Assembly (NCBI GenBank): GCA_964515925.1 | Contig: CAZEYP010000007.1 | Location: forward strand, 1-62,971 | Length of the DNA stretch: 62,971 nucleotides | Direction: 5' to 3' | DNA from: an uncultured Nitrospirota bacterium | GTDB lineage: Bacteria; Nitrospirota; Thermodesulfovibrionia; Thermodesulfovibrionales; JdFR-85 | Part shown: piece after piece, positions 20,774 to 35,340 of the stretch | How positions within the stretch are numbered: the first letter of the stretch is position 1 | How the letters are laid out: the number at the start of each line of letters is the position of its first letter | Position numbers and translations under genes: made by a program | Notes under the pieces: generated by a model | Database searches by the model: none | What the model was told of the DNA's origin: nothing | What the model saw: the letters and a program-made list of their open reading frames with translations, nothing else

Positions 20774-20827
20774 ATCCTACTACTAAATTGTGAATCTAAT
20801 ATGAACATCCTGTGAAAAAATTGTGAA
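20774..20827 (-). promoter_or_regulatory. Four TTCAYA boxes at 11-bp spacing plus a TAGGAT -10 element
   Basis: Plus-strand TRTGAA at 20789, 20800, 20811 and 20822; -10 lies 9 nt downstream of the last box on the minus strand. Confidence 0.7.
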
Positions 20828-20831
20828 TCTC

Positions 20832-21392
20832 TCACCCGGAATTCTTCTCAATCAGACCCAATATCCTTTTTGCTTCTTTACCAACTGGATTGTCAGGGTT
20901 TAGATTGATTGCCCTGCTCAGAGAGTGCTTTGCCTCTTCTGTCTTGCCTGTAGATGCCAGTACAAAACCAAGACTAAGCCATGCCCTCTGATGATAGGGA
21001 TTGAAGGATGTAGCCTTTTTTAAAACCTCAATAGCTTTGTTGCTTTTTCCAGTGTAATGTAGTGCAAGACCAAGATCATTAAGTGTATCCACATCCTTTT
21101 CGATTATTTTGAGTATCCTATAGTAGATCTCTATTGCCTTCTGGTAACGGTTAGTTTCAAAATAAAGAGTTCCAAGTCTGAACAGAAGGTCTCGATTCTC
21201 TGGATCCTCTGCAATGGCTTTTTTGAGTCCCTGTTCTTTTGCATCTAAATTAAGAATATTTACTGGCACAGGTGGAGGAGTGTAGTCACTGTCTGGTGAG
21301 GTGGTGCTTTTTTGTTCTATCTTAATCAGAACAACAGTGAGTACCAGTATAACAACAGCTCCGAGGATTATTTTTTTTGTGAATTCTGACAT
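20832..21392 (-). CDS. Membrane-anchored TPR protein
   Basis: N-terminal TM segment followed by TPR repeats. Confidence 0.8.
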   Translation of the reverse strand: MSEFTKKIILGAVVILVLTVVLIKIEQKSTTSPDSDYTPPPVPVNILNLDAKEQGLKKAIAEDPENRDLLFRLGTLYFETNRYQKAIEIYYRILKIIEKDVDTLNDLGLALHYTGKSNKAIEVLKKATSFNPYHQRAWLSLGFVLASTGKTEEAKHSLSRAINLNPDNPVGKEAKRILGLIEKNSG

Positions 21393-21404
21393 ATGTCAAA
21401 CCTC

Positions 21405-21722
21405 CTAATAGATAGATCTTAATCGACCTGTATGACGATCGAAAATTACCGTGTCCACCACTGTTTTCCCTTTAAGCACATTTATTTTCATAAATCTTCT
21501 GGTCACCTTGATAACCTTTATACTGTATCCCTTTTTGCTGTAGTACTCTGAGAGGGCATGCTCTGCATCGGGAACACTTATGTTATGACTGTGCATCCCA
21601 TATCGAGAAGCCATAGGACAGTAATCACCAAATGGCGTGACAGCCATCCTGTTATGCCATGCGTAAGAAGTGGCAGTCGTCAAAAATAACAAACTGATAA
21701 TTATGAGAACTCTTTTAATCAT
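21405..21722 (-). CDS. Exported hypothetical protein (PepSY-like C-terminus)
   Basis: Signal peptide; GDYCP motif; VDTVIFDRHTG. Confidence 0.6.
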   Translation of the reverse strand: MIKRVLIIISLLFLTTATSYAWHNRMAVTPFGDYCPMASRYGMHSHNISVPDAEHALSEYYSKKGYSIKVIKVTRRFMKINVLKGKTVVDTVIFDRHTGRLRSIY

Positions 21723-21746
21723 AGCCAATTTACCTATCTGCTCTTA

Positions 21747-21778
21747 TTTATAGCATGAAAAAATGAATAAATTATGAA
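21747..21778 (-). promoter_or_regulatory. TTCATA-N5-TTCATT-N9-TATAAA promoter element
   Basis: Same geometry as the other boxes; lies upstream of 21722. Confidence 0.5.
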
Positions 21779-21809
21779 GAGGGGATAGCAGGTATATTCT
21801 TTTTCTGTT

Positions 21810-22286
21810 ATGATTAAAGAAAACACCATGGAGGCACGTATGATGAGGTTTGCAAGTTTTATAATTGTTCTATGTTTATTCTCTTTGGTTAGCTGTTCTG
21901 CAAAGTACACACCCAGGTTAGTTCAACACATCAGGGGAAGCAGTTTTAGTGCAACAGAGCATGGCTATTATACAACCGAGCTTGTTATGAAGCCAAGACA
22001 TCCTCATGTGGGTGCAAACAGTGCACACCTGATAATCCACAACTATGATGGTATTGACATGCCAGGGTTAAGGATTTACATTGAGCCCTATCTGCCCTCT
22101 AAAGATATCACCTCACCTGAGAAGCCACATGTTAAGGACGCAGGCAGGGGGCTTTATATTATTGACAACATAGTTTTCCCTGAGCCAGGTGATTGGGTAT
22201 TGAGGCTTAAGATATTTGGAGAGGAGCTTTCAGATCGTGTAACCTTAAAGATTCCAACGGTATCGAATATGTCCATGATGAAATGA
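21810..22286 (+). CDS. YtkA/FixH-like lipoprotein
   Basis: Lipobox LVSC; DAGRGLY...FPEPGDWVL pattern. Confidence 0.6.
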   Translation: MIKENTMEARMMRFASFIIVLCLFSLVSCSAKYTPRLVQHIRGSSFSATEHGYYTTELVMKPRHPHVGANSAHLIIHNYDGIDMPGLRIYIEPYLPSKDITSPEKPHVKDAGRGLYIIDNIVFPEPGDWVLRLKIFGEELSDRVTLKIPTVSNMSMMK

Positions 22287-22290
22287 TAAT

Positions 22291-22626
22291 TTATTTGAAT
22301 TGAGTGAACCTCCCCGACCTTTGGTCGGGGAGGTTCACTGTGTATTTGCCAGGTGGAAGGTTTTTCTTTAACTTAGTCTCCATGATGGTATCATCTTCCC
22401 TGAAAATGGTCCTGCCTGATACCTTTTTTCCTCTTTCATTATAGACCTCGATTTTTGAAAAGGCTGGCTCTACCGAACCAACAAAGGTTATTGTTACCCT
22501 GTCAGGAGGTGTTGTTAATGATGAGCCTGGTTCAGGACTGTACTGAAGGGTATAAATATGTGCCCTGGCTTTTACGGAAATCAGTATCAACAGAAATAAG
22601 AAAATTATTGTAATTGACCTTTTCAT
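22291..22626 (-). pseudogene. copC: CopC copper-resistance protein, C-terminus lost at a palindrome
   Basis: Signal peptide and mature N-terminal His (ARA-H), P.PG...PD.V.I.F; the sequence after PPGKYT is palindrome-derived and lacks the usual C-terminal DGH strand. Confidence 0.8.
22303..22339. repeat. 37-bp palindrome, copy 1 (IS200/IS605 right-end-like hairpin)
   Basis: AGTGAACCTCCCCGACC-TTT-GGTCGGGGAGGTTCACT; exact reverse complement of 30155-30191. Confidence 0.95.
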
Positions 22627-22684
22627 GTTACCTACTCCTTAATACTTAATTTTAGCACAAAAATATAAAAGTTAGAATATGCTA

Positions 22685-25471
22685 TCAGTGTATATGCCTT
22701 CCGTTCATTGGTAGCCCAATCATATAAAATGTGACAGTTACTGTTATTACTGCATATATAACCATAGTTAACGCTATTTTAGCCATGCTGTAAAAAGTTA
22801 TATTAAGTCGCTTGAGTGTTCTGTAAAGCAGGTATAAGGCAAAAATAAAGCCTGATACAATACTTAACATCTGAAGAGTAAATGCAAGCTTACTTCCTAT
22901 GATTGGCATTGGGTTCCAGTTTATACTGTAGGAACTGAAAAGCCCGACTTTTCTAAGTAGCCTTATCGTTGCAGGAACTGCAACAGGAGCCTCAACAAAG
23001 AGATGATTCATGTTATGAGCTAAATGTAATCCAATCCCAAGGGGTATAAAGGGAAAGGCAAGCTCCTTTATGAGCAGCTTTGCACTAATCTCTTCTTTGA
23101 CGATCCATCTTGAAAGTCCATAGCAGAAGATAATAAATAGAAGAGCTGGCAATGTAATAATTATTATGTATGTAATGCTGAATATGGTTGTGCCTGATGT
23201 GTAGATTCCAAGAAGACCAGCAAGGTATTTCTTTATTTGAGGAAATGCAGAGGTCATTGAAAGTGTTTCAAATAAAACTATGCCGAATAATATGAGCGAT
23301 GCCATAGCTTCGATCGATGATCTTCTCATACCATTGATAATATCCCTGCCAAATCCTCTGTATTTGATGCTCAGGTTGTTGCCTGGACAGGAATGAAGAC
23401 ATTTCATGCAAAAATTACAGTATAAATTGCTGTCTAAGTTGTAGGGGTCTTCAAGCATAGGGCAGGTTGATGAGCAGGTTTTGCTCCTGTGATTAGTGCA
23501 TTTAATTTTACTGTTTGAGGTGATCTTGAATGGTGAAATAAGGGAGTAAAGTCCTATAACAGCACCTATAGGACAGATATATCTGCAGAAGGTTCTCCTC
23601 TGGAATATTATGCTTACCATGACAGAAGCAACAAGTATCCCTATTATTAAAAGCGATGTTGCAAAGGGCTTCTGATAGAGTGAATAATGGGCATAGGCAA
23701 AGGTGAGGGCTACAAAAGCAATTATCTGAAAGCCCATGTTTTGCAGCCACTGTGGAAGTCTTTTCTTTAATGATATAAACCTTTGTGCAATATCTCCTAT
23801 AAAGGCAAAGGGACACATCATGCACCAGAGTCTTCCAAACAGGATAAAACTGAAGATTATCAAACTCCACCATAATGTCCATGTATAGACAGTTGCAATG
23901 TTCTGTCTTCCATCCTGTGTATCAAGAGCTCCTGCAAAAATAATTACAATGAAAATCAGAAGAACCGGTATTGTAAAAATACTTCTGTAGTACTTTGAAC
24001 TGACCAACCCTTTCAATGCTTGGTATCTGAAAAGGTCAACATCCTTTGTTTTCCGAGATGTATCAATTCGAGTGTCCTTTGTTTTTATAAAAAGAAAGGC
24101 CATTCCCAGAAGCCCTATAAATATTGTTGAAATATTAATGTAGTTAACCAGCAATGCACGATTGCTAATACCTGAAGTTATATGTCCAGCATAATGGTAA
24201 TGGGTTTCATTGCGTGATGGATCAAGTCCTGATACATAAGTTGTAAATGAGGGCTCTGCTTTATTGCCAAAGATATCTGTTTGTGGTGGTGTGCCAATTC
24301 TTAGAGTGGTTTCATTACTTGCCCAGACATCTGCATGTTCTTTGTTGTTTTTAGAATGGGCGTGATTTTTATGCGCTGGATCCATAGTGAATATCCCGTA
24401 ATGCTCAAGTGTATTCCCTACCACAACAAGCATGTTGTATGCCCTTCCTTTGATAAATTCTATATCCTCTCTGTCACCGGTATTAAGCGGAAATGCAAAT
24501 TCATAGGTGTATAGATTATCCTGTCTTGATGAAGCAGCAATGATATTATCCATCCTGTCTCTCTTAAGAAAGAAAGTTCCGTTCTGTCTCTGTATGAAGT
24601 GTCTATCGGTAATCTCACCATTTGACTTCAACACCTTCGCATCCTTGTATGACCAGAGCATCCCCAGATTCGGATCGTCTTTGAACAGAAGACCTATCCA
24701 GTAGGGAGTATCAGTTTTTACTGCAAAGTATATGTTGCCATTGGATATTTGTGACCATATCTCTACATGGTAAAAGGGCTTTTTATGGGGTTGATTTTGC
24801 TTGTGAGGACTGAACTCTCCAATATAGAAGTACCTGTGTCCCGTATTTTTCCATTCATCTTCAGAGATAATGCCATCGATTTTGATGGTATTGCCTGTAT
24901 TTCTTGCTATAAAGTTTGTGTCGTCAGAAATGTATGGACCGTATTTCAGTTGTTCTACCTCATGTATATCTTCAGGATTATACCTTGCCAGTAACTGTCC
25001 AGGTGCCGCTCCACAACCGTTTGCTATGAAGAGTTCACCTGTCAGGGCATCCACATCAAGTATCAGGTGATCAACGATAAAGTTGACAGGACCTAAGTGA
25101 TACTTACCATTGTACCCAGAAAGTTGATCAATTGATTCATATTGATATATAAGCCTTCCGTGGACAAGTTCCAGTTTGCGAAATTTGAACCCCCTCTTAA
25201 GATAAGGCACCTTCTCTCTGACAAATTTATTTACTATTGCTTCAGCCCTGGCAGGAGATATTTTTACCTTTGAACGATTAAAAAGGAGATTGCCATTGCG
25301 GTCAAAGTACATATGGCCCCTTGAGGTGGAGATTTTTTTGAATGCAGATTCTGATGGTTTATCATCAAGTATTACATTGACCCCTCCACAGGCAATTGCC
25401 AGTGAATACAAAAGAAGCAGAAAAACAATTGCAAGGTTTGATAAAAGAAGATATTTTTTCCTTAATATCAT
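22685..25471 (-). CDS. 928-aa exported/membrane protein: soluble N-terminal domains (DOMON-like) fused to a NapH/MauN-type 4Fe-4S polyferredoxin membrane domain
   Basis: IDGIISEDEW; WCMMCP, FCRYICPIG and CNFCMKCLHSCP motifs; many TM segments. Confidence 0.75.
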   Translation of the reverse strand: MILRKKYLLLSNLAIVFLLLLYSLAIACGGVNVILDDKPSESAFKKISTSRGHMYFDRNGNLLFNRSKVKISPARAEAIVNKFVREKVPYLKRGFKFRKLELVHGRLIYQYESIDQLSGYNGKYHLGPVNFIVDHLILDVDALTGELFIANGCGAAPGQLLARYNPEDIHEVEQLKYGPYISDDTNFIARNTGNTIKIDGIISEDEWKNTGHRYFYIGEFSPHKQNQPHKKPFYHVEIWSQISNGNIYFAVKTDTPYWIGLLFKDDPNLGMLWSYKDAKVLKSNGEITDRHFIQRQNGTFFLKRDRMDNIIAASSRQDNLYTYEFAFPLNTGDREDIEFIKGRAYNMLVVVGNTLEHYGIFTMDPAHKNHAHSKNNKEHADVWASNETTLRIGTPPQTDIFGNKAEPSFTTYVSGLDPSRNETHYHYAGHITSGISNRALLVNYINISTIFIGLLGMAFLFIKTKDTRIDTSRKTKDVDLFRYQALKGLVSSKYYRSIFTIPVLLIFIVIIFAGALDTQDGRQNIATVYTWTLWWSLIIFSFILFGRLWCMMCPFAFIGDIAQRFISLKKRLPQWLQNMGFQIIAFVALTFAYAHYSLYQKPFATSLLIIGILVASVMVSIIFQRRTFCRYICPIGAVIGLYSLISPFKITSNSKIKCTNHRSKTCSSTCPMLEDPYNLDSNLYCNFCMKCLHSCPGNNLSIKYRGFGRDIINGMRRSSIEAMASLILFGIVLFETLSMTSAFPQIKKYLAGLLGIYTSGTTIFSITYIIIITLPALLFIIFCYGLSRWIVKEEISAKLLIKELAFPFIPLGIGLHLAHNMNHLFVEAPVAVPATIRLLRKVGLFSSYSINWNPMPIIGSKLAFTLQMLSIVSGFIFALYLLYRTLKRLNITFYSMAKIALTMVIYAVITVTVTFYMIGLPMNGRHIH

Positions 25472-25506: not shown

Positions 25507-25588
25507 AGCCTAACTTATAATTATGAAAAAATTATGAAGAAGTTATGTTTATCCTCTTCACATTTTTTTCACATTTGGACATTACAAT
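25507..25588. promoter_or_regulatory. Divergent pair of TTCAYA-N5-TTCAYA-N9-(-10) promoters
   Basis: Minus strand: boxes 25533-25538 and 25522-25527 with TAGGCT. Plus strand: TTCACA 25557 and 25568 with TACAAT 25583-25588. Confidence 0.7.
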
Positions 25589-25589
25589 T

Positions 25590-26330
25590 ATGGAAATGGT
25601 AGAAATATCCTATCCATTAGCCTTTATGGCTGGCATCGTATCTTTTATTTCTCCCTGTGTCCTTCCTCTTATTCCATCTTATCTCTCTTATATAACGGGT
25701 ATATCCTTTGAGGAACTGACAAATAAAGCCAGCATAAATAAGGTCTGATACCTGAGTCTTGCTCATGCAATCTTTTTTGTAACTGGTTTTTCTATTGTAT
25801 TTATATCGTTAGGAGCTTCTTCATCAGTAATTGGTAAGGTCTTAAATAATTATCAGGATGCGATAAGGATTTCTGGTGGAATAATGATAATTATCTTCGG
25901 ACTGTTTATTGCAGATGTAATCAAGATAGATTTCCTGCTCAGAGAGAGAAGGCTTAACTTTGCAGAAAAACCTGCGGGGTATTTAGGAACTTCCCTGGTA
26001 GGAATGGGCTTTGCTGCAGGCTGGACTCCCTGCATTGGTCCGATTCTCGGCAGCATTCTGATGTATGCTGGTGCACATGGCTCTGTATCCTATGGTGTTA
26101 AACTACTTGGTGTATATTCGTTTGGTCTTTCCTTACCATTTATAATATCGGCCGTTGGATTTAACTTCTTTTTAAGTTATTCCAGAAAAATTTTAAGACA
26201 CATGAAGACCATCAAGATTATTTCAGGAATTTTTCTTATTATTTTTGGTATCCTTCTGTTTTCTAATATGATTAGCGAACTTTCTGGTCTTTTCCCTGAT
26301 TTCGGTCTTGATCTTCCTCTTCCAAAATAA
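25590..26330 (+). pseudogene. ccdA: Cytochrome c biogenesis protein CcdA with an in-frame TGA
   Basis: SFISPCVLPLIPSYLS and FAAGWTPCIGPILG motifs lie in one frame across TGA 25746-25748 (NKV*YLS). Confidence 0.88.
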
Positions 26331-26338: not shown

Positions 26339-26381
26339 TTCATAATGCTTTCATATTTTCTTCATATTTTATTTTTAGAAT
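26339..26381 (+). promoter_or_regulatory. Three TTCATA boxes at 11-bp spacing plus a TAGAAT -10 element
   Basis: Boxes at 26339, 26350 and 26361; TAGAAT at 26376-26381. Confidence 0.75.
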
Positions 26382-26389: not shown

Positions 26390-26887
26390 ATGATGAGGTA
26401 CAAAAAGCACATTGGTTTTTTAGTCTTGTTGGCAGTATTTCTTACCTTTAATGGCAAGGGTGTACAGGCAAAGGAGGTTACATTAATGGATGTGGAAAGG
26501 GTTACTGACCTGCTTATGAGCCCGGGGTGTAATTATATGTACACACTGACCAACTGTCCATCGGCTGAGGCAGAGCAGATGAGAGAAATCGTAAGAGATA
26601 AACTGTGAAACGGTGAGTCCACCGAGGCCATACTGAATTACTTTGAAGAGATTTATGGCCCCAGGATGCTGGCACAGCCAAAGAAAAAAGGCTTTTATTT
26701 CATTGCCTGGTGGTTTCCCTATTTTTTGATATTTGATGTATTCCTCCTGATAGGTCTGATTTTATATATCTGGCAAAAAAGGGGTAAAAGTGATAGTACA
26801 ACTTCAGAGCGGTCTGAACCTGACGACAGGGATGAGGCTGAAATAGAGGCGCTCCTTGAAGAGGAGCTGAGGATGTTTAAGGGATGA
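26390..26887 (+). pseudogene. ccmH: CcmH/NrfF-like protein with an in-frame TGA
   Basis: LMSPGC...NCPSAEAEQMR; frame continues over TGA 26606-26608 (DKL*NGESTEAILNYFEEIYGPRMLAQP). Confidence 0.75.
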
Positions 26888-27448
26888 AGAACTTTCTGAG
26901 AAGCCTATTTATTATCCCTTTTTTCATACTGGTGGTTGCACTATTAACCGGAGTATTTTCAGGTAAAGAAAAAACAGCTAAAAAACACCCCCGCCCAACA
27001 ATAGGTGAGAAGGCAAGAGACTTTGCCTATCCAGACCTGAATGGAAAAAGTAAGGCTTTCGGATTACTTTGGCAAGAAAGTGATATTTTTGAATATCTGG
27101 GCAACCTGGTGTACTTCCTGTAAAAAGGAGTTACCAACCGTGCAGAGGATGTACGAGAAACTAAAAGGCGACGACCTTGTGGTTCTTGCAGTAAGCATAG
27201 ATGCACTTGGCAAGAAGGCTGTTGAGCCCTTCATGAAGAAATACGGCTCAGATTTTCCTGTTTTGCTCGACACCACAGGCTCGATTCAGCTTCTCTATGG
27301 AACCACTGGTGTGTCTGAGACCTTCATTATAGACAAAAGCGGAAAGATTGCCTATGTGGAGATTGGCGCAGGAGACTGGACCGACCCAGAAAAAGAGGCA
27401 CTGCATAGTGATTCCCTACAGGACAATGGTTATTTCACCTCAGGATGA
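26884..27448 (+). pseudogene. TlpA/ResA thiol-disulfide oxidoreductase, frameshifted
   Basis: TM anchor and ARDFAYPDLNG in one frame, NIWATWCTSC in the next; shift at A-run 27045-27049; C-terminus appears to run into the next gene near 27395. Confidence 0.8.
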
Positions 27449-28146
27449 GCATACATTACAGGTATTCGAGGTGATAATTGTAAAGAATACGGGGAAGACC
27501 ACATTTGTTGGGAGATTTAATGATGAACTTGATACCGAGCAGGTGCTGTTCGTACCTCTTCCCATGGGCTACAGGTTGAGCCAGGTTATGGGTTTAAATA
27601 CCAGAAAGATACTCACATTCAATGGTGGTATTGTTACACAGGATGTTGTAACACCAGGAGAAAGGGAGATTGTTATTGGATATCTACTAAAAAGCGATAC
27701 AGGTTTTTTGACCTAACGCTTCACCCTGCAGACAACAGCCCTTATCCAGAAAGATTTAACCTCCTTGTCAGAGACGACAGCAGGTGGAAACTAAAGGTTT
27801 CGGGTCTTGAAGAGTCGGGAAAAACAAATTTTTACGGAAAACAGTTCAGGGTATGGACCGGAATGCCAGGGCCTGGACTGAGGGCAGCTCTTTACAGCCC
27901 TGCTTACAAAAGTGCATATAGCAGCTGGTTTCTTGTGTTAATTTCAGGTGTCCTGGTTACCACAGTTATTCTTTTTGCTGGTAGAAAAAGGATCATGGCC
28001 TACTATCAAAAAAGGGAAAAAGAGGAACTGGAAGAGGTTCTTTCTTATCTTGAAGCCAATTCCCCAGAGGGTTCAACGGATACAGAACTTTTGCAGAGCT
28101 TTTAAAGAAAAGGCTAACAGCTCTATCAGAAAGGACAGAGCAATAG
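27395..28146 (+). pseudogene. 5'-truncated, frameshifted ccm-associated membrane protein
   Basis: No start or signal; frame shifts at T-run 27704-27709 and possibly at G-run near 28069; the alternate-frame tail ends with TAG immediately before the ccmA ATG. Confidence 0.5.
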
Positions 28147-28821
28147 ATGCTGTACATGAAGGATGTATCAAAGACCTATGGGCTGAGACCTGTATTAAAT
28201 GGGATAAATATAAACATTAATAAGGCAGAGGTCTTTGTGCTTTTTGGTCACAATGGCGCTGGAAAGACCACCATGCTCAAAATAGCCGCTGGTATTATGT
28301 CACCTACCAGTGGAAAGGTGGTCTATGAAGACGATACATTAAGAAAGGGTGGTATCTTCTACCTCGGCCACAAAAACAGCCTCTATACTGAACTGACCGT
28401 GTTGGAGAATATAAGATTTTTCCTCAGCTTAAGAAACGTTGCAGGTGCCGCTGTAAGAGACACTCTTTCAGAGTTTGGTCTCTGGCAGAGAAGAAACGCC
28501 CCCGTGAAGTCGCTCTCACAGGGAATGAAGAGGAGGCTTGCCCTCATGAAGGCAATATTAAGTGGTGCCAGGTTGATTGTGCTTGACGAGCCCTTCTCGG
28601 GGCTTGACCTCAGATGGAAGGATACGGTGTTGGAGTGGCTGCTTGCTCTTAGTGCAGAGGGGCGTTCACTGCTTGTTGCAACTCATCTGGTTCAAGAGGG
28701 CTGTCAGATTGCAGACAGGGTGGGGCTACTTGAAAGGGGGGAACTGACGGTGATGCACGAAAAGTCACAGATTGATGATGCCCTTATACAGGAGAGGTTA
28801 AAGCATGAGGTTTGTAAGTAA
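28147..28821 (+). CDS. ccmA: Heme exporter ATP-binding subunit CcmA
   Basis: GHNGAGKTT Walker A, LSQGMKRR and LDEPFSGLD; context. Confidence 0.85.
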   Translation: MLYMKDVSKTYGLRPVLNGINININKAEVFVLFGHNGAGKTTMLKIAAGIMSPTSGKVVYEDDTLRKGGIFYLGHKNSLYTELTVLENIRFFLSLRNVAGAAVRDTLSEFGLWQRRNAPVKSLSQGMKRRLALMKAILSGARLIVLDEPFSGLDLRWKDTVLEWLLALSAEGRSLLVATHLVQEGCQIADRVGLLERGELTVMHEKSQIDDALIQERLKHEVCK

Positions 28822-29486
28822 CACGATTTCCATTGTAAGAAATGACATACTTCTTGAGCTAAGGGCAAAAGAGGCCCTGAGCATAATGGTCTTTCTTTCT
28901 CTTTTACTGCTTGTTGTGTTCAACCTTGCCGTTGACATAGACAGAGAAAATGTTTCCTCCCTTGCATCAGGTATCCTCTGGGTGGTATTTGCCTTCTCAG
29001 GTGTGCTGGGCATGGGTAAGACATCACTTTCTGAACGTGAAGACAGTGCCTATCTGAATGTGTTTTTCTCAGCCGTTTCAATGGAGACCTTTTACATTGC
29101 AAAGGTTATTAGCAACCTGATATTTCTGCTCCTGATGGAGTTTTTTACCATGGTATCATTTGTGGTGCTTTTCAATTACGAGCCCCTGGTAGGGAAATTG
29201 CCATCTCTTGTGCTTCCCATTGTGCTTGGAAGTATTGGGTTTTCTGCGGTAGGCACCCTGTTTTCTTTCCTATCAACGGGTTCGAGGTTTGGCGAGATAA
29301 TACTCCCCTTTCTGTTTTTTACCTGTGGTGGTGCCGGTGATTATAGGAGGTGTGTCAGCAACTGACCTTATCCTGAATGATACAACAGTGGAGTCACCCA
29401 TTAAGTGGATAAAGCTACTTGTTGTGTTCGACCTGTTATATATGAGCATATCGCTAATGCTTTTCAGGTTTATTGTGGAGGAGTAA
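28805..29486 (+). pseudogene. ccmB: Heme exporter permease CcmB, +1 frameshift
   Basis: GILWV.FAFSG; removing one T from run 29315-29320 gives LPVVVPVIIG...FRFIVEE* ending at 29486. Confidence 0.88.
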
Positions 29487-29490
29487 TGGT

Positions 29491-30154
29491 ATGAAATCTA
29501 TTAAGCTAACGAGGGCACTGCTTGTAGTGCTGTTTTTTATGTTTCCACTCTGCTTCTATTTGATCTTTCAGGTGCTCCGACCGAGAGAATCATGGGCGAT
29601 GTGCAGCGGATATTTTATCTGCATGTTTCATTGGCAGTAAGCGCTTATCTTGGATTTGGTGTGCTGTTTTTTTCAAGCATACTATATCTGATTAAGAAGA
29701 GCCTTTACTGGGACAGCCTTGCAAGTTCAGCAGGTGAGGTGGGACTTCTGTTTTCTACCCTTGTTCTCATAACCGGCTCGTTATGGGCACGGCCTGTCTG
29801 GAATGTGTGGTGGACTTGGGACCCCAGGCTTGTTACCATGCTGATACTCTGGTTTATCTACATTGGCTATTTCATGATAAGAAAGGCGGTTACAGAGAAG
29901 ACCAGAAGGGCGAGGTATTCGGCAATTGTTGGAATTATCGGGTTTCTTGATGTCCCGGTGGTGAGGCTTGCCACCAGGTGGTGGAGGTCAATACACCCAC
30001 GACTGGACAGGGAATCAGGTGGCCTTGATCCACTGATGGTAAAGGTTATGATCTTCAGTCTTGTAACATTTTTGATATTTGCAGCGGTATTGATATTTGT
30101 GAGATTCAGGATTGCCTGGACTGAAGAGCGTTTGAACACAATAATCTCTCTATC
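29491..30154 (+). pseudogene. ccmC: Heme exporter CcmC, frameshifted near the 5' end; 3' end fused to a palindrome
   Basis: ATG 29491; shift near 29566-29568; QRIFYLHV, GSLWARPVWNVWWTWDPRL and WWRSIHP (WWD motif). Confidence 0.88.
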
Positions 30155-30191
30155 AGTGAACCTCCCCGACCAAAGGTCGGGGAGGTTCACT
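30155..30191. repeat. 37-bp palindrome, copy 2
   Basis: AGTGAACCTCCCCGACC-AAA-GGTCGGGGAGGTTCACT. Confidence 0.95.
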
Positions 30192-30503
30192 TTAGCAGGG
30201 TTTGGGCTTGCCTTTCTCCTTGGCATACCCTTTTCCATGTCATTCTGTCCATTCTGCGTGCCTGTGGTTCTTAGTATTCTGACAGTGGCTGCTGCCACTG
30301 GAAAACTATGGTACTCTGCCCTTCTTATGTTATTCTTCTCACTTGGCAGGGGGATTCCGCTTGTTATTGCAGGGGTATAGGTTGGTGCATTTAAAAAACT
30401 GCAAAGATTAAAAGCCTACCTCAAGTGGATTGAAAAGTTAGGAGGGGTAATACTTCTGCTAATGGGCCTTTATTATCTTTACGATGTGTTGACCCTCTAC
30501 TGA
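30192..30503 (+). pseudogene. 3' fragment of a second CcdA/DsbD-family gene with an internal TAG
   Basis: FCPFCVPVV, GRGIPL, then AGV*VGAFKK...WIEKLGGVILLLMGLYYL*; TAG at 30378-30380. Confidence 0.75.
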
Positions 30504-30562: not shown

Positions 30563-31165
30563 TCAGCTTATTCCTTGCCCCGGTCCGCCGGTAGTGTTTG
30601 ACGACTTTGAAAGCTCCTTCTCAAAGACCTCATAGAGTCTGAGTTCCATCCTGAATGTCCTGAGTTTCAGGGTCTCATCCCAGTTGTAAATCTCTGGTGG
30701 GCCGTATTTTTTGTTTTTCAGCACATACCGCTCAAGATACTCCCTGTCAGGAAAAACTATTATATATTCCTTAACGCCAAACCTCTCATAAAGGGCCTTC
30801 TTTTCCCGACGGTCCTTCAGTTCCGTGGCAGGAGAGGTTATCTCTATTACAAGATCAGGGGCGCCCTGAATATTGTCTTCTGTGATCTTCTTCTTTGAGC
30901 AGACAACGAACAGATCAGGCTGAACCACATTGAACTCATCAAGCACCACATCCGTGGGGGCATAAAAGGGAATACAACTTTTTAAGGCATCCTTGTTGTT
31001 TACAAATACCTCGGTTAGTCTCCACAAAATCCTCTGGTGTCTGGTCTTAGGTGCAGGTGACATAGAGTAGGCCTGCCCATCAATCAACTCCCACCTCTCA
31101 TCATCAGGCCATCTGAGGTAGTCCTGGTAGGTGAACCGCCTCTGTTTCTTAAGTGCAAGTGGTAT
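30563..31165 (-). CDS. Uma2/DUF820 endonuclease-fold protein, copy 1 (start codon position reads ATA; possibly inactive)
   Basis: WELIDG...MSPAP, VVQPDL, PDLVIEITSP; ATA at 31163-31165 aligns with the ATG of copy 2. Confidence 0.8.
   Translation of the reverse strand: MPLALKKQRRFTYQDYLRWPDDERWELIDGQAYSMSPAPKTRHQRILWRLTEVFVNNKDALKSCIPFYAPTDVVLDEFNVVQPDLFVVCSKKKITEDNIQGAPDLVIEITSPATELKDRREKKALYERFGVKEYIIVFPDREYLERYVLKNKKYGPPEIYNWDETLKLRTFRMELRLYEVFEKELSKSSNTTGGPGQGIS
30614..31158. repeat. 545-bp direct repeat, copy 1 (Uma2 coding sequence)
   Basis: Appears identical by eye to 34683-35227 (offset 4069). Confidence 0.92.
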
Positions 31166-31213
31166 AGTTAATTATAAAGGTTCCTTTCTGGATTTAACAT
31201 GGGTTGTTTTGAA

Positions 31214-31264
31214 TTGACAAATGATATTTTAAACGATATAATATGAGTAATTACTCATATGAGT
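31214..31264 (+). promoter_or_regulatory. Consensus sigma-70 promoter with an overlapping palindromic operator
   Basis: TTGACA(31214)-17-TATAAT(31237); perfect palindrome ATATGAGTAATTACTCATAT at 31241-31260 and overlapping ACTCATATGAGT at 31253-31264. Confidence 0.85.
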
Positions 31265-31278
31265 TAAGGCTAATATGT

Positions 31279-31611: not shown

Positions 31612-31614
31612 CCA

Positions 31615-32097
31615 ATGAAAAAAGAATTACTGTTAATAGGAGTATTTATTGTGTTGTTATTTACCGGATGTAACGAAAGCAGTGCTAAAGGTGTCCTGAA
31701 AGATTATACCTTTGTCACCGTAGATGGTAAGAGTATAAACTTTAACAATCTCAAAGGGGCTCTTATAGTAGTAATCAATATAGGTGGGCATTGGTGAAGG
31801 ATATGCAAAAGAGAAGCTCCCGAACTTCAGAGGGCCTATGCGAAATTCAAAGACAGAGGTGTAATCTTTATTGGTGCCTTTGTCCTTGGAAACAACCAGC
31901 AGATAAAAAAGTTTCGGGAGCGATATCATCTGACCTTTCCAGTTGGGAAGGAAAATGGTCTGTCAAAAAAACTTCACATTATTGCACTTCCAACTACAGT
32001 ATTTATAGGAAAAGACGGAAGAATAAAAAAACGCCATATTGGAGAGATTACATTTGAAGATTTAGATAGAGAAATTAAGAAGTTACTTAAACAATAA
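31615..32097 (+). CDS. Putative selenoprotein: TlpA/AhpC-TSA-like lipoprotein with UxxC
   Basis: Lipobox FTGC; reading through TGA 31795-31797 gives HW-U-RIC-KREAPEL...ALPTTVFIGKDG, a complete 160-aa thioredoxin fold. Confidence 0.85.
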
Positions 32098-32112
32098 AAG
32101 GAGGTTTAAAAA

Positions 32113-32382
32113 ATGAAGATGTTTGAGGAAATGATGAAGAAAATAATGGGCGGGATGATGAAGCCAGAGGACATGCCCGAGATGATGACTGCTATGATGG
32201 ACAGGTGTTTCAGTGAGATGAAACCCAATGACAAAATGGCATTTATGGAGAACATGATGCCCAGATGTATGAATATGATGTTTAAGGATATGTCTGTAAA
32301 GGAAAGGAAAAGATTTGCAGAAAAGATGCTTAACAGGATGTTTGGAGAGTTAAAAAAACATGCGGAAGAGGATACTCAATGA
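32113..32382 (+). CDS. Very Met-rich small protein with two Cys
   Basis: GGAGG SD; about a quarter of residues are Met. Confidence 0.75.
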   Translation: MKMFEEMMKKIMGGMMKPEDMPEMMTAMMDRCFSEMKPNDKMAFMENMMPRCMNMMFKDMSVKERKRFAEKMLNRMFGELKKHAEEDTQ

Positions 32383-32395
32383 GGAGGTGATAAAG

Positions 32396-32581
32396 GTGAG
32401 TGGTGAGACAATAAGGGATGTCATTGCCAGTCTTGAGCCTTCTGTTAAAAAGGAACTGCTTAACAGCCTTGTTAGTATGCTAATTGAGGAACTTACAGAG
32501 GCTGAAAAAAAGGAACTCCTTCAGAGGGTTGCTGCAGGGGGCAGAAAAGGCCGAGAGATGATAGAGATGGTTGAGCATTGA
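32396..32581 (+). CDS. Small helical hypothetical protein
   Basis: GAGGAGG before GTG 32396; position within the operon. Confidence 0.65.
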   Translation: MSGETIRDVIASLEPSVKKELLNSLVSMLIEELTEAEKKELLQRVAAGGRKGREMIEMVEH

Positions 32582-32605
32582 ATAAAGGAATGCACGGATT
32601 CAGGT

Positions 32606-32875
32606 GTGAATCCGCTTGAGATGAGCAAGGAACTTATTTCTGCATTCAGTCATTCCTATGAACTGGCAACATACTCAACACCTGAATTGAGGACATTGTT
32701 TAATGACTGGCTTTCAGAGATTGAGCAGGAGGTGGTCTCCTTTCTTAAAGACAGACACAGGGTTGACCCTGACGAGGTGGCAGGACATCTGAGGATAGGC
32801 CGTGAGAGTGCAATATTCATCCTGAGCAAACTTGCCAGGGAAGGAAAGATAAACATGCAGGCATATGGGTTTTAA
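32606..32875 (+). CDS. Hypothetical protein with C-terminal winged-helix-like segment
   Basis: TPELRTLFNDWL and A.HLRIGRESAIFILSKLAREGKI. Confidence 0.65.
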   Translation: MNPLEMSKELISAFSHSYELATYSTPELRTLFNDWLSEIEQEVVSFLKDRHRVDPDEVAGHLRIGRESAIFILSKLAREGKINMQAYGF

Positions 32876-32899
32876 CATATCTTATTGGGAGGTTATTCC

Positions 32900-33190
32900 A
32901 TGAAACTATTTGATTTCAAAAGTGGTGCCATTGCTTCTGCACTGGCATATGCATTTTGTTGACAGCTACCGCTGGTCCTGGCCAGTGTGGGGCTGGGGAG
33001 TTTTACATTTTCCTTATGGTTTATAAAGTACAGATGGCTCTTTCTTGTAATTACTTTTGTATTTCTTGCTATTGCGTGGTATATGACCTTCAAAGGTCAG
33101 AGGAAACCGGGCAAATGGAGCAAAGCAATACTTTATGGTACCACAGTGTTGAGTATTACACTTGTGCTTTACAGTTTTATAACCACATAA
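32900..33190 (+). CDS. Putative selenoprotein: MerT/MerF-like transporter with Cys-Sec in place of Cys-Cys
   Basis: GGAGG and ATG 32900; AYAFC-U(32960-32962)-QLPLVLASVGLG aligns with the MerT CC..PLVL..LG motif; three TM helices; hairpin directly 3' of the TGA. Confidence 0.8.
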
Positions 33191-33201
33191 AGGAGGCAGT
33201 G

Positions 33202-34638
33202 ATGTCGGACAAAGACAGAAAAACAAAACCTGACAGTTGCTGACCCTCAACCGACTCTGCCAGTGGGCAGGACAGGATAAGTCAGGAGTCAGGAGTCAGA
33301 AGTCAGGAGGGGGATGCAGAAAAGGGCGCTCCAAAGGCCGAGCACTGCATGGTCTGTGGTGAGAAGCTGCAGTATCTTGAGACCTCACGCAGTTTGAAGT
33401 GTCTATACTGCGGCAAGGAAGAGGAAGGTCACATTACCTGCCCTAAGGGACACTACATCTGTGAGCACTGCCACAACCAGGACGCAATGCGGATGATAGA
33501 GGATGTGGCCTTCAGCACTAAATCTCAAAATCCAGTTGAGATAGCCGAGCTGATGCTCTCCTTTCCAGGGCTTCCAATGCTTGGCTGCCATCATGCCTAC
33601 ATCGCAGGTGGTGCACTCATGGCGGTAATAAAAAACTCTGGCACAAGAAAGATAACCAATGATGATATAAAGGAGGTCTTTAAGAGGACTAAACGCCAGG
33701 CACATGGTGGATACTGCGGCCTTACCGGGGTTTGCGGCATTGCCCCTGCAATAGGAGCGGTTTTTGCTGTATTGACTGGGTCAAAGTGTGGCACAGACAG
33801 AGAGCAGCGGATTACAATGGAGGCAGTCACGAGGGTTACAAGGGCGATAACAGAACTAACAGGGCCCAGTTGCTGCAAGGCATATGTGAAAAGCTCCCTT
33901 GAGGTGGCCACAGAATCTCTCAGGGAATCCCTTGGAATTGAACTTCCCACGCAGAGGGTGTCGGCCTGTCTTCATTCCGAGAAACATCCCCACGGCTGCC
34001 GGGAGATGAAATGTCCATACTTTGGCAGTAGTGGTTCAGATAATGACAGGCTCGAAAGTCAGGTTGAAAACCCGCTTCCGTCACTCAATGATTTTTCCTC
34101 TAAGGATGAGACAATGGATTTTCTCATTAAAAAGGCCCTTGAACTCGGTGCTGAGAGGGCAAAGTTAATTGACACAAATACAGTGGTTGTTCAAGAGTGG
34201 GTTAGATGGAAATGCCGTTACGGCTGTCCTCTTTATGGAAAAGATGCCTATCATCCTCCCTGTGCTCCTGATGCAGAGACCACCCATAGGATGCTTTCTG
34301 AATACAAAAGAGCCATACTGATGAACTGCCCAAAGGGAAAGCCTCTTACAGAGGTGGCGGTAAGACTTGAAGGTATTGCCTACAGGATGGGATTTTATAA
34401 GGCATTTGCGATGACAGCACTTTCCTCAGGACCTCCTGGCATGACCTGACCTTCGGGTGAGGAGGATGCCCGGGAGGACTCCGAGAGAGAGGCACAGAAG
34501 GAGATGAGGATCAGACCCCTTATGGAGGCATGTGGTATTGATGTCTTTAAGACCGCCCGTGCAAATGGCTTTGAGATTGACACCAGGAAAGAAACTTACG
34601 GCAGGTGGAACTACTTTGCCCTCTTACTGATTGAGTAA
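33202..34638 (+). CDS. Putative double-Sec protein: N-terminal CU, DUF5714 and DUF2284 (478 aa)
   Basis: AGGAGG and ATG 33202; in-frame TGAs at 33241-33243 (SC-U-P) and 34447-34449 (GMT-U-P); readthrough restores the DUF2284 tail RPLMEACGIDVF. Confidence 0.8.
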
Positions 34639-35240
34639 TTCCCTGAACTTTTTCCGGGTTCTTTATCATTGCCCTCTTTTGACTCCTTCTCAAAGACCTC
34701 ATAGAGTCTGAGTTCCATCCTGAATGTCCTGAGTTTCAGGGTCTCATCCCAGTTGTAAATCTCTGGTGGGCCGTATTTTTTGTTTTTCAGCACATACCGC
34801 TCAAGATACTCCCTGTCAGGAAAAACTATTATATATTCCTTAACGCCAAACCTCTCATAAAGGGCCTTCTTTTCCCGACGGTCCTTCAGTTCCGTGGCAG
34901 GAGAGGTTATCTCTATTACAAGATCAGGGGCGCCCTGAATATTGTCTTCTGTGATCTTCTTCTTTGAGCAGACAACGAACAGATCAGGCTGAACCACATT
35001 GAACTCATCAAGCACCACATCCGTGGGGGCATAAAAGGGAATACAACTTTTTAAGGCATCCTTGTTGTTTACAAATACCTCGGTTAGTCTCCACAAAATC
35101 CTCTGGTGTCTGGTCTTAGGTGCAGGTGACATAGAGTAGGCCTGCCCATCAATCAACTCCCACCTCTCATCATCAGGCCATCTGAGGTAGTCCTGGTAGG
35201 TGAACCGCCTCTGTTTCTTAAGTGCAACCGGCATGTTCAA
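34611..35240 (-). CDS. Uma2/DUF820 endonuclease-fold protein, copy 2
   Basis: Same motifs as copy 1; intact ATG. Confidence 0.88.
   Translation of the reverse strand: MNMPVALKKQRRFTYQDYLRWPDDERWELIDGQAYSMSPAPKTRHQRILWRLTEVFVNNKDALKSCIPFYAPTDVVLDEFNVVQPDLFVVCSKKKITEDNIQGAPDLVIEITSPATELKDRREKKALYERFGVKEYIIVFPDREYLERYVLKNKKYGPPEIYNWDETLKLRTFRMELRLYEVFEKESKEGNDKEPGKSSGNYSISKRAK
34683..35227. repeat. 545-bp direct repeat, copy 2
   Basis: Matches 30614-31158. Confidence 0.92.
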
Positions 35241-35308
35241 TTATAACATACTTTAAAGATTTCCTTAACATGGCCGACTTAGGTTATTAACTATGTTTTT
35301 TTATGTTC

Positions 35309-35340
35309 TTCACAATTTCTTCGCAATTAAGTGTTATGGT
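35309..35340 (+). promoter_or_regulatory. TTCACA-N5-TTCGCA-N9-TATGGT promoter element
   Basis: Same geometry as the boxes at 20.8, 21.8, 25.5 and 26.3 kb. Confidence 0.6.

What the first reader, a model, noticed from the sequence alone, without database searches (positions are those of the whole stretch)
20774..35340. A regulon visible in the DNA: TTCAYA-N5-TTCAYA-N9-TAnnnT at six promoters
Seen: hexamers at exact 11-bp phasing at 20789/20800/20811/20822 (minus), 21762/21773 (minus), 25522/25533 (minus), 25557/25568 (plus), 26339/26350/26361 (plus) and 35309/35320 (plus). In every case a -10-like hexamer (TAGGAT, TATAAA, TAGGCT, TACAAT, TAGAAT, TATGGT) starts exactly 9 nt after the last box. 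Known: phased direct repeats replacing the -35 are typical of OmpR/PhoB-family activators; B. subtilis CssR recognises TTTTCAYA-like boxes. Inference: one unseen regulator co-activates the exported Gly/Met proteins, the polyferredoxin, ccdA, the ccm operon and the SHOCT/ZraP-like operon. The ccdA transcript would be leaderless at ATG 25596.
Basis: partly seen in the sequence, partly recalled or inferred. Interest (0 to 1): 0.7.

Follow-up and report, generated by a model that had tools for sequence, protein, structure and literature searches.

The report
Conserved copper-stress promoter boxes, regulator unseen
Six promoters in this hydrothermal-vent Nitrospirota genome share phased TTCAYA boxes at a fixed distance from the -10 element, the signature of one two-component response regulator (encoded elsewhere) that switches on a copper and periplasmic-redox defence gene set; the boxes are real and conserved, but they are a new example of a well-known kind of switch.

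Summary
TTCAYA-N5-TTCAYA occurs 7 times exactly, against 0.12 expected. With the N9 spacer and TAnnnT added, and up to 2 mismatches allowed, it hits only the six named promoters (9 overlapping matches against 1.06 expected). All six are intergenic and point at a gene.

The architecture (2-4 boxes in 11-bp phase, 9 nt, then a -10) recurs upstream of the orthologous genes in more than 12 Thermodesulfovibrionia loci at 47-70% protein identity. TAnnnT sits at exactly +9 in 26 of 41 proximal dimers, and the flanks carry no information.

The downstream genes form a copper and periplasmic thiol-redox set:
- a Met/His-rich exported protein
- CopC(D) and YtkA
- a 928-aa polyferredoxin
- CcdA, CcmH, TlpA and Ccm
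- SHOCT and a ZraP-like protein

No OmpR-type DNA-binding gene lies in the window or beside the regulon in about 10 independent contexts. In unrelated metagenome contigs, however, the same geometry sits directly beside OmpR/PhoB-family regulator-kinase operons (CusB-efflux, SHOCT, and Na/Pi-PhoU types). An OmpR/PhoB-type class-II activator is therefore the best reading.

Transcription starts could not be tested because no RNA runs hold the sequence.

In this genome several target genes (ccdA, ccmH, tlpA and the HisKA-only sensor) are pseudogenes.

Verdict: real, a new member of a known kind, of moderate interest.

The parts
20774..20827 (-). Promoter 1. Four boxes (TTCACA, TTCACA, TTCATA, TTCACA at 20822, 20811, 20800, 20789), then N9, then the -10 TAGGAT (20774-20779).
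   Evidence: A 4-box array precedes the same operon in L001, L006, L018, L025 and L150.
20384..20716 (-). Exported Gly/Met/His-rich protein of 110 aa with a signal peptide. It has no Pfam hit. Its C-terminal part resembles the ZraP-like protein in L001.
19409..20305 (-). Membrane protein with a HisKA (DHp) domain only and no HATPase_c, co-transcribed with the Met-rich protein. In the window it carries an in-frame TAA at 19754-19756, where relatives have Glu.
21747..21778 (-). Promoter 2. Boxes TTCATA (21773) and TTCATT (21762), then N9, then TATAAA (21747-21752).
20832..21722 (-). Operon of a 105-aa exported protein (21405-21722) and a TPR protein with a CcmH/CycH-like TPR (20832-21392).
   Evidence: The pair is syntenic in L001, L006 and L018.
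25507..25538 (-). Promoter 3. Boxes TTCATA (25533) and TTCATA (25522), then N9, then TAGGCT (25507-25512).
   Evidence: A box promoter lies just upstream of the polyferredoxin orthologue in L001, L002, L005, L006, L007, L010, L012 and L018. In L003/L004 and L013 it lies upstream of a gene placed in front of the orthologue (DsbC-like, RseC).
22291..25471 (-). 928-aa membrane polyferredoxin (Fer4_5, NapH/NosR-like; 22685-25471) followed by CopC (22291-22626). The copD gene that follows in relatives is absent here.
25557..25588 (+). Promoter 4. Boxes TTCACA (25557) and TTCACA (25568), then N9, then TACAAT (25583-25588). The predicted +1 is at 25595/25596, which is the A of the ccdA ATG.
25596..26330 (+). 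ccdA (DsbD_TM), with a probably leaderless mRNA. It carries an in-frame TGA at 25746-25748 where L018 has AGA (Arg).
26339..26381 (+). Promoter 5. Three TTCATA boxes (26339, 26350, 26361), then N9, then TAGAAT (26376-26381).
   Evidence: A box promoter precedes ccmH in L001, L005, L006, L018 and L150.
26390..30380 (+). Decayed ccm cluster.
- ccmH (26390-26887) has a TGA at 26606-26608.
- The TlpA/ResA-like thioredoxin (26884-27448) is frameshifted.
- A remnant of a 365-aa protein lies at 27348-28105.
- ccmA (28147-28821), ccmB (28805-29365) and a ccmC-like gene (29592-30380) follow.
- ccmE and ccmF, present in relatives, are missing.
35309..35340 (+). Promoter 6. Boxes TTCACA (35309) and TTCGCA (35320), then N9, then TATGGT (35335-35340). 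The leader to the ATG at 35475 is about 128 nt.
   Evidence: TTCGCA is also the proximal box of a 4-box promoter in L001, L006 and L150.
35475..37416 (+). Operon of a SHOCT membrane protein (35475-35726), a Met-rich ZraP/Metal_resist-like periplasmic protein (35869-36516) and a DUF4396 membrane protein (36586-37416).
   Evidence: The SHOCT and ZraP-like pair lies beside the polyferredoxin in L007 and L010. A SHOCT gene follows an RR-HK pair in L041.

Best explanation
The boxes are the binding sites of one transcription activator of the OmpR/PhoB winged-helix response-regulator family, and its gene lies outside this window.

How it most likely works:
- Each 11-bp unit (TTCAYA followed by W-T-T-n-n) binds one monomer head to tail.
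- Two to four units occupy about -38 (up to -60) to -22 and replace the missing -35 element.
- The proximal unit always ends 9 nt before the -10 hexamer, so the bound dimer can contact sigma region 4 and recruit RNA polymerase (class-II activation, as at PHO boxes).

The regulon is a copper and periplasmic thiol-redox stress response. Its members are Met/His-rich periplasmic proteins, CopC(D), YtkA, a NapH/NosR-like polyferredoxin, the CcdA-TlpA-CcmH reductant pathway with an accessory Ccm set, and SHOCT/ZraP-like/DUF4396. In relatives it also includes RseC-CopZ, DsbC/DsbA-like and VTT/DedA proteins.

The operon with the most boxes encodes a Met-rich periplasmic protein plus a membrane HisKA-only (DHp, no ATPase) protein. 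That protein probably feeds back on the pathway as co-sensor, phosphotransferase or phosphatase.

Shown: the motif, its statistics, its geometry, its cross-genome conservation, the gene content, the absence of a linked regulator, and the co-location of the same geometry with OmpR-family operons elsewhere.

Inferred: the regulator family, activation rather than repression, copper or redox as the signal, the start sites, and the role of the HisKA-only protein.
For: - Enrichment: 7 exact dimers against 0.12 expected. Only the six promoters match the full pattern.
- Geometry: 26 of 41 proximal dimers in the window plus 26 loci have TAnnnT at exactly +9, against at most 4 at any other offset. Information content is confined to the boxes, the WTT after each box and the -10. 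The flanks are near 0 bits, so these are not duplicated DNA.
- No canonical -35.
- Promoters travel with their genes through rearrangements. ccdA is divergent from the polyferredoxin in the window and L018, but from the Met-rich operon in L001 and L006. L150 has five such promoters.
- Gene content.
- The same 3-box + N9 + (-10) geometry lies within 200 bp of OmpR-family RR-HK operons in 8 of 120 metagenome hits. I estimate the chance expectation at roughly 0.1, from an assumed typical density of such operons; this was not computed. In L081 and L033 the site is directly upstream of the RR gene. In L081 a second site precedes an OEP/CusB-like efflux operon. L041 is RR-HK-SHOCT.
- L013 (Nitrospiraceae) has an OmpR-type RR gene, cut by an assembly gap, 1.5 kb from a box-bearing CopC promoter.
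- Literature: a PHO box is two 11-nt head-to-tail units that contact sigma-70, and the S. coelicolor core is GTTCACC (PMC4415409). The CssR box is TTTTCACA (PMC6749698).
Against: - No OmpR-type wHTH gene is in the 63-kb window or next to the regulon in about 10 independent genomic contexts. The regulator is therefore hypothetical.
- No transcript data exist. Start sites and activation, as opposed to repression, are untested.
- The signal (copper or redox) rests on gene content only.
- Several target genes are inactivated in this genome, so the regulon may no longer be fully functional here.
- Two or more paralogous regulators could share the boxes.
Confidence: 0.72

Rival explanations
1. The boxes are the PHO boxes of this lineage. 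The phosphate-starvation regulator PhoB/PhoP binds them, and the genes belong to the Pho regulon.
For: In L066 and L122 the identical architecture (three TTCAYA boxes, N9, -10) sits between an RR-HK pair and a Na/Pi cotransporter-PhoU operon. The S. coelicolor PHO core is GTTCACC (PMC4415409).
Against: None of the roughly 45 box promoters seen in the window and in more than 14 Thermodesulfovibrionia loci precedes a pst, pho, phoU, ppk or phosphatase gene. All precede copper, thiol-redox or cytochrome-maturation genes. L020, a Thermodesulfovibrionales locus with a PhoB-like RR and a PAS-HK, has no boxes.
Confidence: 0.07
2. The neighbouring CueR-like MerR regulator (18867-19265) controls these promoters. 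On this reading the distal TTCACA is a -35 element (5/6 match to TTGACA) with an overlong 20-bp spacer that MerR-type DNA distortion makes usable.
For: The distal box lies exactly 20 bp from the -10. A MerR gene with a C-X8-C metal site lies next to the regulon in the window, L013 and L018.
Against: MerR operators are inverted repeats inside the spacer. Here the elements are direct repeats with no dyad. Arrays extend to three or four units far upstream of -35. The same architecture accompanies OmpR-family operons elsewhere. Most related loci have no MerR gene.
Confidence: 0.05
3. The boxes are operators of a repressor, or binding sites of a non-response-regulator factor (for example a stand-alone wHTH or a new DNA-binding protein). 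They are not class-II activator sites.
For: No cognate RR-HK pair is linked to the regulon in any context. The boxes overlap the region RNA polymerase would occupy.
Against: The promoters lack any -35 element at 16-18 bp, which argues that they depend on an activator. The rigid N9 distance, the 11-bp head-to-tail repeats and the autoregulated RR operons with identical geometry fit OmpR/PhoB activation.
Confidence: 0.1
4. The repeats arose by chance, or are relics of duplicated AT-rich promoter DNA with no regulatory meaning.
For: The intergenic regions are AT-rich (22-33% GC), and TTCATA-like words are common in such DNA.
Against: None of 100 shuffles reaches the observed counts. The motif is conserved at orthologous promoters at about 50% protein identity with uninformative flanks.
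Confidence: 0.01

Closest known systems
PHO box / PhoB-PhoP class-II activation (E. coli PhoB, B. subtilis PhoP, S. coelicolor PhoP)
   Same: Head-to-tail direct repeats of 11-nt units (6-7 conserved plus 4-5 AT-rich), in 2-4 copies, replace the -35 at a fixed short distance from the -10. The activator contacts sigma-70 region 4 (PMC4415409). The TTCAC core is shared with S. coelicolor GTTCACC. From memory, the E. coli pho box ends 10 bp before the -10, which would put the TCAT core in the same register as here.
   Different: The target genes are copper and periplasmic-redox genes, not phosphate genes. No phoBR-like operon is linked.
CssR-CssS secretion/envelope-stress regulon of B. subtilis (box TTTTCACA)
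   Same: The box sequence is almost identical (TTTTCACA contains TTCACA, and many spacers here end in TT; PMC6749698). The regulator is of the OmpR family and the response concerns the cell envelope.
   Different: The defining CssR targets are HtrA-type proteases, and none is in this regulon. cssRS is autoregulated and linked to its targets. No such pair is linked here.
CusRS/CopRS and BaeSR-type metal/envelope two-component systems
   Same: The regulon content is comparable: Met-rich periplasmic proteins, CopC/D, Spy/ZraP-like proteins, and efflux in L081. The L081/L033/L041/L099 regulators that sit beside identical boxes have a BaeR-like recognition helix (ERTIDAHIKNLRRK).
   Different: From memory, the E. 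coli CusR box is palindromic and the BaeR box is unrelated in sequence. In those systems the RR-HK genes are adjacent to their targets and autoregulated, which is not seen in this lineage.
Scs (suppressor of copper sensitivity) and CcdA/ResA/TlpA thiol-reductant pathways
   Same: A DsbD/CcdA-type membrane reductant transporter plus TlpA-like thioredoxins are used to protect periplasmic cysteines and cytochrome c maturation under copper stress (established knowledge).
   Different: Here they are co-regulated with a polyferredoxin, CopC and an accessory Ccm system through a direct-repeat box. This arrangement has not been described, to my knowledge.

Membership tests
OmpR/PhoB-family response-regulator site (PHO-box-like class-II promoter) | Head-to-tail direct repeats with an 11-bp (one helical turn) period | tested here: met
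   There are 2-4 boxes at an exact 11-bp period in the window and in more than 14 related loci.
OmpR/PhoB-family response-regulator site (PHO-box-like class-II promoter) | Each unit has a conserved core of 6-7 nt plus a less conserved AT-rich remainder | tested here: met
   Information sits in TTCAYA plus WTT, and the remaining positions carry about 0-0.4 bits.
OmpR/PhoB-family response-regulator site (PHO-box-like class-II promoter) | The site replaces the -35 element and sits at a fixed distance from the -10 | tested here: met
   N9 in 6 of 6 window sites and in 26 of 41 proximal dimers overall. There is no canonical -35.
OmpR/PhoB-family response-regulator site (PHO-box-like class-II promoter) | Bound by a receiver + winged-helix (Trans_reg_C) protein | tested here: inconclusive
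   No such gene is in the window or linked loci. The identical geometry is adjacent to Trans_reg_C regulators in L033, L041, L065, L066, L067, L081, L091, L099 and L122. Binding itself cannot be tested with these tools.
OmpR/PhoB-family response-regulator site (PHO-box-like class-II promoter) | Transcription starts 6-8 nt after the -10 and depends on the activator | not testable with these tools
   No RNA run holds the sequence.
Pho regulon | The boxes precede phosphate-acquisition genes (pst, phoU, phosphatases, Na/Pi transporters) | tested here: not met
   None among the window sites or the related Thermodesulfovibrionia loci. This feature is met only in the unrelated contigs L066 and L122.
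CssRS regulon | TTTTCACA boxes upstream of htrA-type protease genes and of cssRS itself | tested here: not met
   The box resembles the canonical one, but no HtrA-type protease gene and no linked RR-HK pair appears in the regulon.
MerR-type promoter | A 19-20 bp spacer with an inverted-repeat operator between -35 and -10 | tested here: not met
   The distal box lies 20 bp from the -10, but the elements are direct repeats with no dyad, and the arrays extend upstream.
CusRS/CopRS-type copper two-component regulon | An RR-HK operon adjacent to, and autoregulated with, copper-resistance targets | tested here: not met
   The targets are copper-related, but no RR-HK pair is linked in the window, L001, L006, L018, L025, L150 or L151. 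Only a HisKA-only protein is co-transcribed.

The most novel reading that the evidence does not exclude
The regulon may run on an atypical signalling chain. A conserved membrane protein with a periplasmic sensor and a DHp (HisKA) domain, but no ATPase domain, is always encoded behind the strongest (4-box) promoter together with a Met-rich periplasmic partner. It would act as the copper or redox sensor, exchanging phosphate in trans with a sensor-less kinase (as suggested by the DUF4118-HisKA-HATPase gene next to it in L152) and with an orphan OmpR-type regulator. That would be a split, three-part two-component system. Alternatively, the boxes are read by a DNA-binding protein that is not a response regulator at all.
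Probability: 0.2. Interest if true: 0.7.

Novelty: new member of a known kind. Interest (0 to 1): 0.5.

Why it matters
The result gives a sequence-level regulon for an uncultured, hydrothermal-vent Nitrospirota (Thermodesulfovibrionia) lineage in which nothing is known about gene regulation.

It links several components into one predicted copper and periplasmic-redox defence: a NapH/NosR-like polyferredoxin, CopC/D, the CcdA-TlpA-CcmH reductant pathway, an accessory cytochrome c maturation set, SHOCT/ZraP-like proteins and a DHp-only sensor. That yields testable functional hypotheses for several proteins of unknown function.

It also shows that a rigid box geometry (11-bp phased TTCAYA, then N9, then the -10) is shared by OmpR-family regulators across phyla. 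This makes the geometry a practical search key for regulons in metagenomes.

It is not a new principle of regulation.

Tried and rejected
- tblastn with E. coli PhoB (sequence written from memory) and with the L013 wHTH fragment, against the window and all loci. It found receiver domains only, and no Trans_reg_C in the window.
- A 200-aa regulator at 11037-11639 turned out to be a receiver plus a SHOCT-like tail, not a DNA-binding protein.
- Looking up window-end proteins to reach beyond the window failed. One protein is not on record, and the other lies on short repeat-limited contigs.
- Eight genomic contexts of HisKA-only homologues were read to look for a linked regulator. None had one.
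- A profile search with the box-associated regulators L081, L033, L041 and L099 returned only Negativicutes-type proteins (8000 candidates, saturated). It could not reach the Nitrospirota orthologue.
- The search with the L013 fragment returned only short partial proteins. It did show that the L013 gene is cut by an assembly gap.
- No RNA sequencing runs hold the locus.
- Rfam found nothing in the window.
About a quarter of its hits are plain 11-bp tandem repeats and are irrelevant.
- I first suspected TGA recoding or selenocysteine for the in-frame stops. I rejected this because the positions are Arg, Arg and Glu in relatives, one of the stops is TAA, and the other long genes of the window are intact.
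- Sequencing error as the cause of the stops and frameshifts is also rejected. Two independent assemblies, one at about 120x, match the window with no differences.

Full report
**Observation.**

- TTCAYA-N5-TTCAYA occurs 7 times without mismatch in the 62,971-bp window (41.7% GC), against 0.12 +/- 0.33 in 100 dinucleotide-preserving shuffles. All seven lie between 20789 and 26366.
- Allowing one mismatch adds only 21762(-) (TTCATT) and 35309(+) (TTCGCA).
- The full pattern, TTCAYA-N5-TTCAYA-N9-TAnnnT with up to two mismatches, matches nothing in the window except these six promoters. It gives 9 overlapping matches against 1.06 expected.
- Each quoted -10-like hexamer begins exactly 9 nt after the last box. 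TATAAA at site 2 is the only one that does not end in T.
- All six sites are intergenic (22-33% GC) and point at the adjacent gene.
- A sigma-70 consensus scan finds no -35/-10 pair with a 16-18 bp spacer at any of them.

With the -10 at -12 to -7, the proximal box lies at -27 to -22 and the distal one at -38 to -33. Neither can serve as a -35 element.

**What the promoters drive (Pfam).**

| Site | Boxes | Downstream genes |
|---|---|---|
| 1 | 4 | An exported Gly/Met/His-rich 110-aa protein, then a membrane protein with a HisKA domain only |
| 2 | 2 | A 105-aa exported protein and a TPR protein (CcmH/CycH-type TPR) |
| 3 | 2 | A 928-aa membrane polyferredoxin (Fer4_5) and CopC |
| 4 | 2 | ccdA (DsbD_TM) |
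| 5 | 3 | ccmH, a TlpA/ResA-like thioredoxin, then ccmA, ccmB and ccmC |
| 6 | 2 | A SHOCT membrane protein, a Met-rich Metal_resist/ZraP-like protein and DUF4396 |

The neighbourhood is a metal island. It holds a CueR-like MerR (18867-19265), an ArsR, several YHS-domain proteins including a soluble YHS-HisKA-HATPase kinase, and a CopA-type ATPase.

**Origin.**
The polyferredoxin has orthologues (47-68% identity) only in Nitrospirota/Thermodesulfovibrionia MAGs, plus one archaeal and one Desulfobacteraceae bin. The window sequence is held, without a single difference, by contigs of two hydrothermal-vent metagenomes, one at about 120x.

**Conservation.**
The motif recurs upstream of the orthologous genes in L001, L002, L003/L004, L005, L006, L007, L010, L012, L013, L018, L025 and L150.

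- Among 41 proximal dimers in the window plus 26 loci, TAnnnT starts at exactly +9 in 26. No other offset has more than 4.
- Most exceptions are arrays that continue with a degenerate box before the N9 and -10.
- In 27 non-redundant sites, information content is confined to the two boxes, the W-T-T that follows each box and the -10. The 12 nt upstream and the N9 are near 0 bits. These are therefore not copies of one promoter.
- The promoters stay with their genes through rearrangements. ccdA is divergent from the polyferredoxin in the window and L018, but from the Met-rich/HisKA-only operon in L001 and L006.
- The 4-box array precedes the Met-rich/HisKA-only operon, or the HisKA-only gene itself in L150, in L001, L006, L018, L025 and L150 as well as here.
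- L150 alone has five box promoters, in front of the HisKA-only gene, ccdA, a 198-aa membrane protein, ccmH and DsbC_N.
- Further members in relatives are RseC/MucC with a CopZ-like HMA protein, a VTT/DedA protein, CopD, DsbA/DsbC-like thioredoxins and a Rieske/cytochrome b pair.

The gene set argues for copper and periplasmic thiol-redox stress. Established knowledge fits this: copper attacks periplasmic cysteines and cytochrome c maturation, and DsbD/CcdA-TlpA-type reductant pathways such as Scs counteract it.

**The regulator.**
No gene with an OmpR-type winged helix is in the window. tblastn with PhoB finds only receiver domains: a receiver-HD-GYP protein, a hybrid kinase and a 200-aa receiver-SHOCT-like protein. 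None is linked in L001, L006, L018, L025, L150, L151 or L152 either.

The only linked signalling gene is the HisKA-only protein. It belongs to a family of 42 proteins of 250-365 aa with an invariant ELAGATAHE(M/L)RQP His box and never a HATPase_c domain. Distant members carry a CxxCH Tll0287-like periplasmic domain. In L152 a DUF4118-HisKA-HATPase kinase follows it directly.

L013 (Nitrospiraceae bin398) carries the 3' end of an OmpR-type regulator gene, cut by an assembly gap (NCBI labels it 'partial'). It lies 1.5 kb from a box-bearing CopC promoter.

**Independent support for the family assignment.**
I scanned metagenome contigs for three boxes + N9 + TAnnnT. Roughly a quarter are plain 11-bp tandem repeats.

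In eight loci the site lies within 200 bp of an OmpR/PhoB-family RR-HK operon. Pfam confirmed the proteins of L081, L066 and L041.

- **L081 and L033:** the site is directly upstream of the regulator gene, which implies autoregulation. In L081 a second dimer with N9 + TATGAT precedes an OEP/CusB-type efflux operon.
- **L099 and L065:** the site is divergent from the regulator gene.
- **L066 and L122:** the site lies right after the kinase and in front of a Na/Pi cotransporter-PhoU operon.
- **L091 and L067:** the site follows the kinase.

L041 also has an RR-HK pair, followed by SHOCT and a Met-rich DUF2680 protein, but its 3-box site lies about 4.8 kb away.

I estimate the chance expectation for such adjacency at roughly 0.1 locus. 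The estimate assumes about ten such operons per 4-Mb genome and was not computed.

All of these sites keep the N9 geometry. The L081, L033, L041 and L099 regulators and the L013 fragment share a BaeR-like recognition helix, (E/D)RT(I/V)D(A/S)H(I/V)KN(L/I)R.K. Their close relatives are Negativicutes proteins, so they are analogues of the Nitrospirota regulator, not its orthologues.

**Literature.**
A PHO box is two 11-nt head-to-tail units of seven conserved and four variable positions, read by a regulator that contacts sigma-70. The S. coelicolor core is GTTCACC (PMC4415409). The canonical CssR box is TTTTCACA (PMC6749698). I found no paper on copper regulation in Thermodesulfovibrio.

**Mechanism proposed.**
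An OmpR/PhoB-family regulator encoded elsewhere binds head to tail to 2-4 units, replaces the -35 contact and recruits RNA polymerase. More units (4 at the sensor operon, 3 at ccm) would give higher occupancy. The regulon responds to copper or periplasmic redox damage. The HisKA-only protein and its Met-rich partner are under the strongest promoter and probably act in feedback.

The ccdA mRNA is probably leaderless. The ATG lies 7-8 nt after the -10 with no Shine-Dalgarno sequence in the window, L018, L001 and L006. L150 has an AGGAGG leader instead. The ccmH start in the window is only about 2 nt from the predicted +1.

**Rivals.**
- **Pho regulon.** The same architecture serves Pho-type operons in L066 and L122, but no phosphate gene follows any box in this lineage.
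- **MerR/CueR.** The distal box is 20 bp from the -10 and a CueR-like gene is adjacent. However, the elements are direct repeats without a dyad, and the arrays extend upstream.
- **Repressor or non-RR factor.** This is possible because no regulator is linked. The missing -35 and the rigid geometry argue for activation.
- **Chance.** Excluded.

**State of the regulon in this genome.**
- Relative to L018, ccdA has AGA to TGA (25746), ccmH has AGA to TGA (26606) and the HisKA-only gene has GAA to TAA (19754).
- tlpA is frameshifted, and a 365-aa downstream gene is broken across frames.
- ccmE, ccmF and copD are missing.
- The sequence is identical in two assemblies, so these are real lesions.

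The boxes themselves remain perfect. The 928-aa polyferredoxin reading frame is uninterrupted.

**Not testable here.**
Start sites could not be tested because there are no RNA runs. Protein-DNA binding and the inducing signal could not be tested with these tools.

**Verdict.**
This is a real, conserved regulon signature of a well-known mechanistic kind in an unstudied lineage. The regulator remains unidentified.

Noticed in passing
window 19754-19756, 25746-25748, 26606-26608, about 27040-27060, 27348-28105: Several genes of the box regulon are inactivated in this genome. The HisKA-only gene has GAA to TAA, ccdA has AGA to TGA and ccmH has AGA to TGA, each relative to L018. tlpA is frameshifted, and a 365-aa gene is broken across frames. 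ccmE, ccmF and copD, present in relatives, are missing. Two independent assemblies (one at about 120x) agree with the window base for base.
   Followed up: yes
window 19409-20305 (-); P0001-P0042; L152 10001-12225: There is a conserved family of membrane proteins with a periplasmic domain (Tll0287/DUF3365-like, with CxxCH in distant members) and a HisKA/DHp domain. The phospho-acceptor His is invariant, and there is never an ATPase domain. These proteins are not adjacent to a response-regulator gene in any context read. In L152 a DUF4118-HisKA-HATPase kinase follows directly.
   Followed up: partly
window 18867-19265 (-): A MerR-family regulator with a C-terminal CPGKGPISEC motif (CueR-like C-X8-C) sits right after the HisKA-only gene. 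Homologues lie beside the regulon in L013 and L018. Its own operator was not located.
   Followed up: no
window 22303-22339: A perfect 17-bp GC-rich hairpin lies between the convergent YtkA-like and CopC genes and is probably a bidirectional terminator. Short-read contigs of runs X1 and X2 break or fold back at this point.
   Followed up: no
window 35420-35441: Inside the roughly 128-nt leader of the SHOCT operon there is a single TTCATA box followed by 10 nt and a perfect TATAAT. This may be a second, box-independent promoter.
   Followed up: no
window 11037-11639 (+): A 200-aa receiver-domain protein with a coiled-coil and a SHOCT-like tail has no DNA-binding domain. It belongs to a cluster (receiver-HD-GYP, PilZ, GAF kinase, hybrid kinase, DUF763) that is conserved next to the regulon in L018.
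   Followed up: partly
window 30563-31087, 34611-35240, 50226-50765 (-); 37454-38647 (-): Three paralogous ORFs share the motif ELIDGxxYxMxP. From memory this looks like the Uma2/DUF820 type. A 397-aa transposase-like ORF interrupts the metal island. None of these was checked against Pfam.
   Followed up: no
window 56150-56488 and 62575-62913; 56596-57912, 59907-61235: P-II (glnB-like) and ammonium-transporter genes are duplicated around a sigma-54 activator. The first 40 residues shown for the two P-II copies are identical. Assemblies break in this repeat.
   Followed up: no
L035, L042, L057, L059, L061, L069, L071, L082, L084, L086, L089, L110, L118, L133, L147: A nearly invariant element, TTCACATCATGTTCATAATTTGTTCATAATTGGTTGGTATACT, recurs in 15 metagenome contigs, at least five of them labelled human gut. 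It has the same geometry: three boxes, N9, then a -10. In L042 it is intergenic and no obvious ORF follows it. Rfam gives no hit there.
   Followed up: partly
L010 2004-2020 (-): One box dimer in a related locus points away from the adjacent p107 homologue and toward no evident gene. This is an exception to the otherwise consistent orientation.
   Followed up: no
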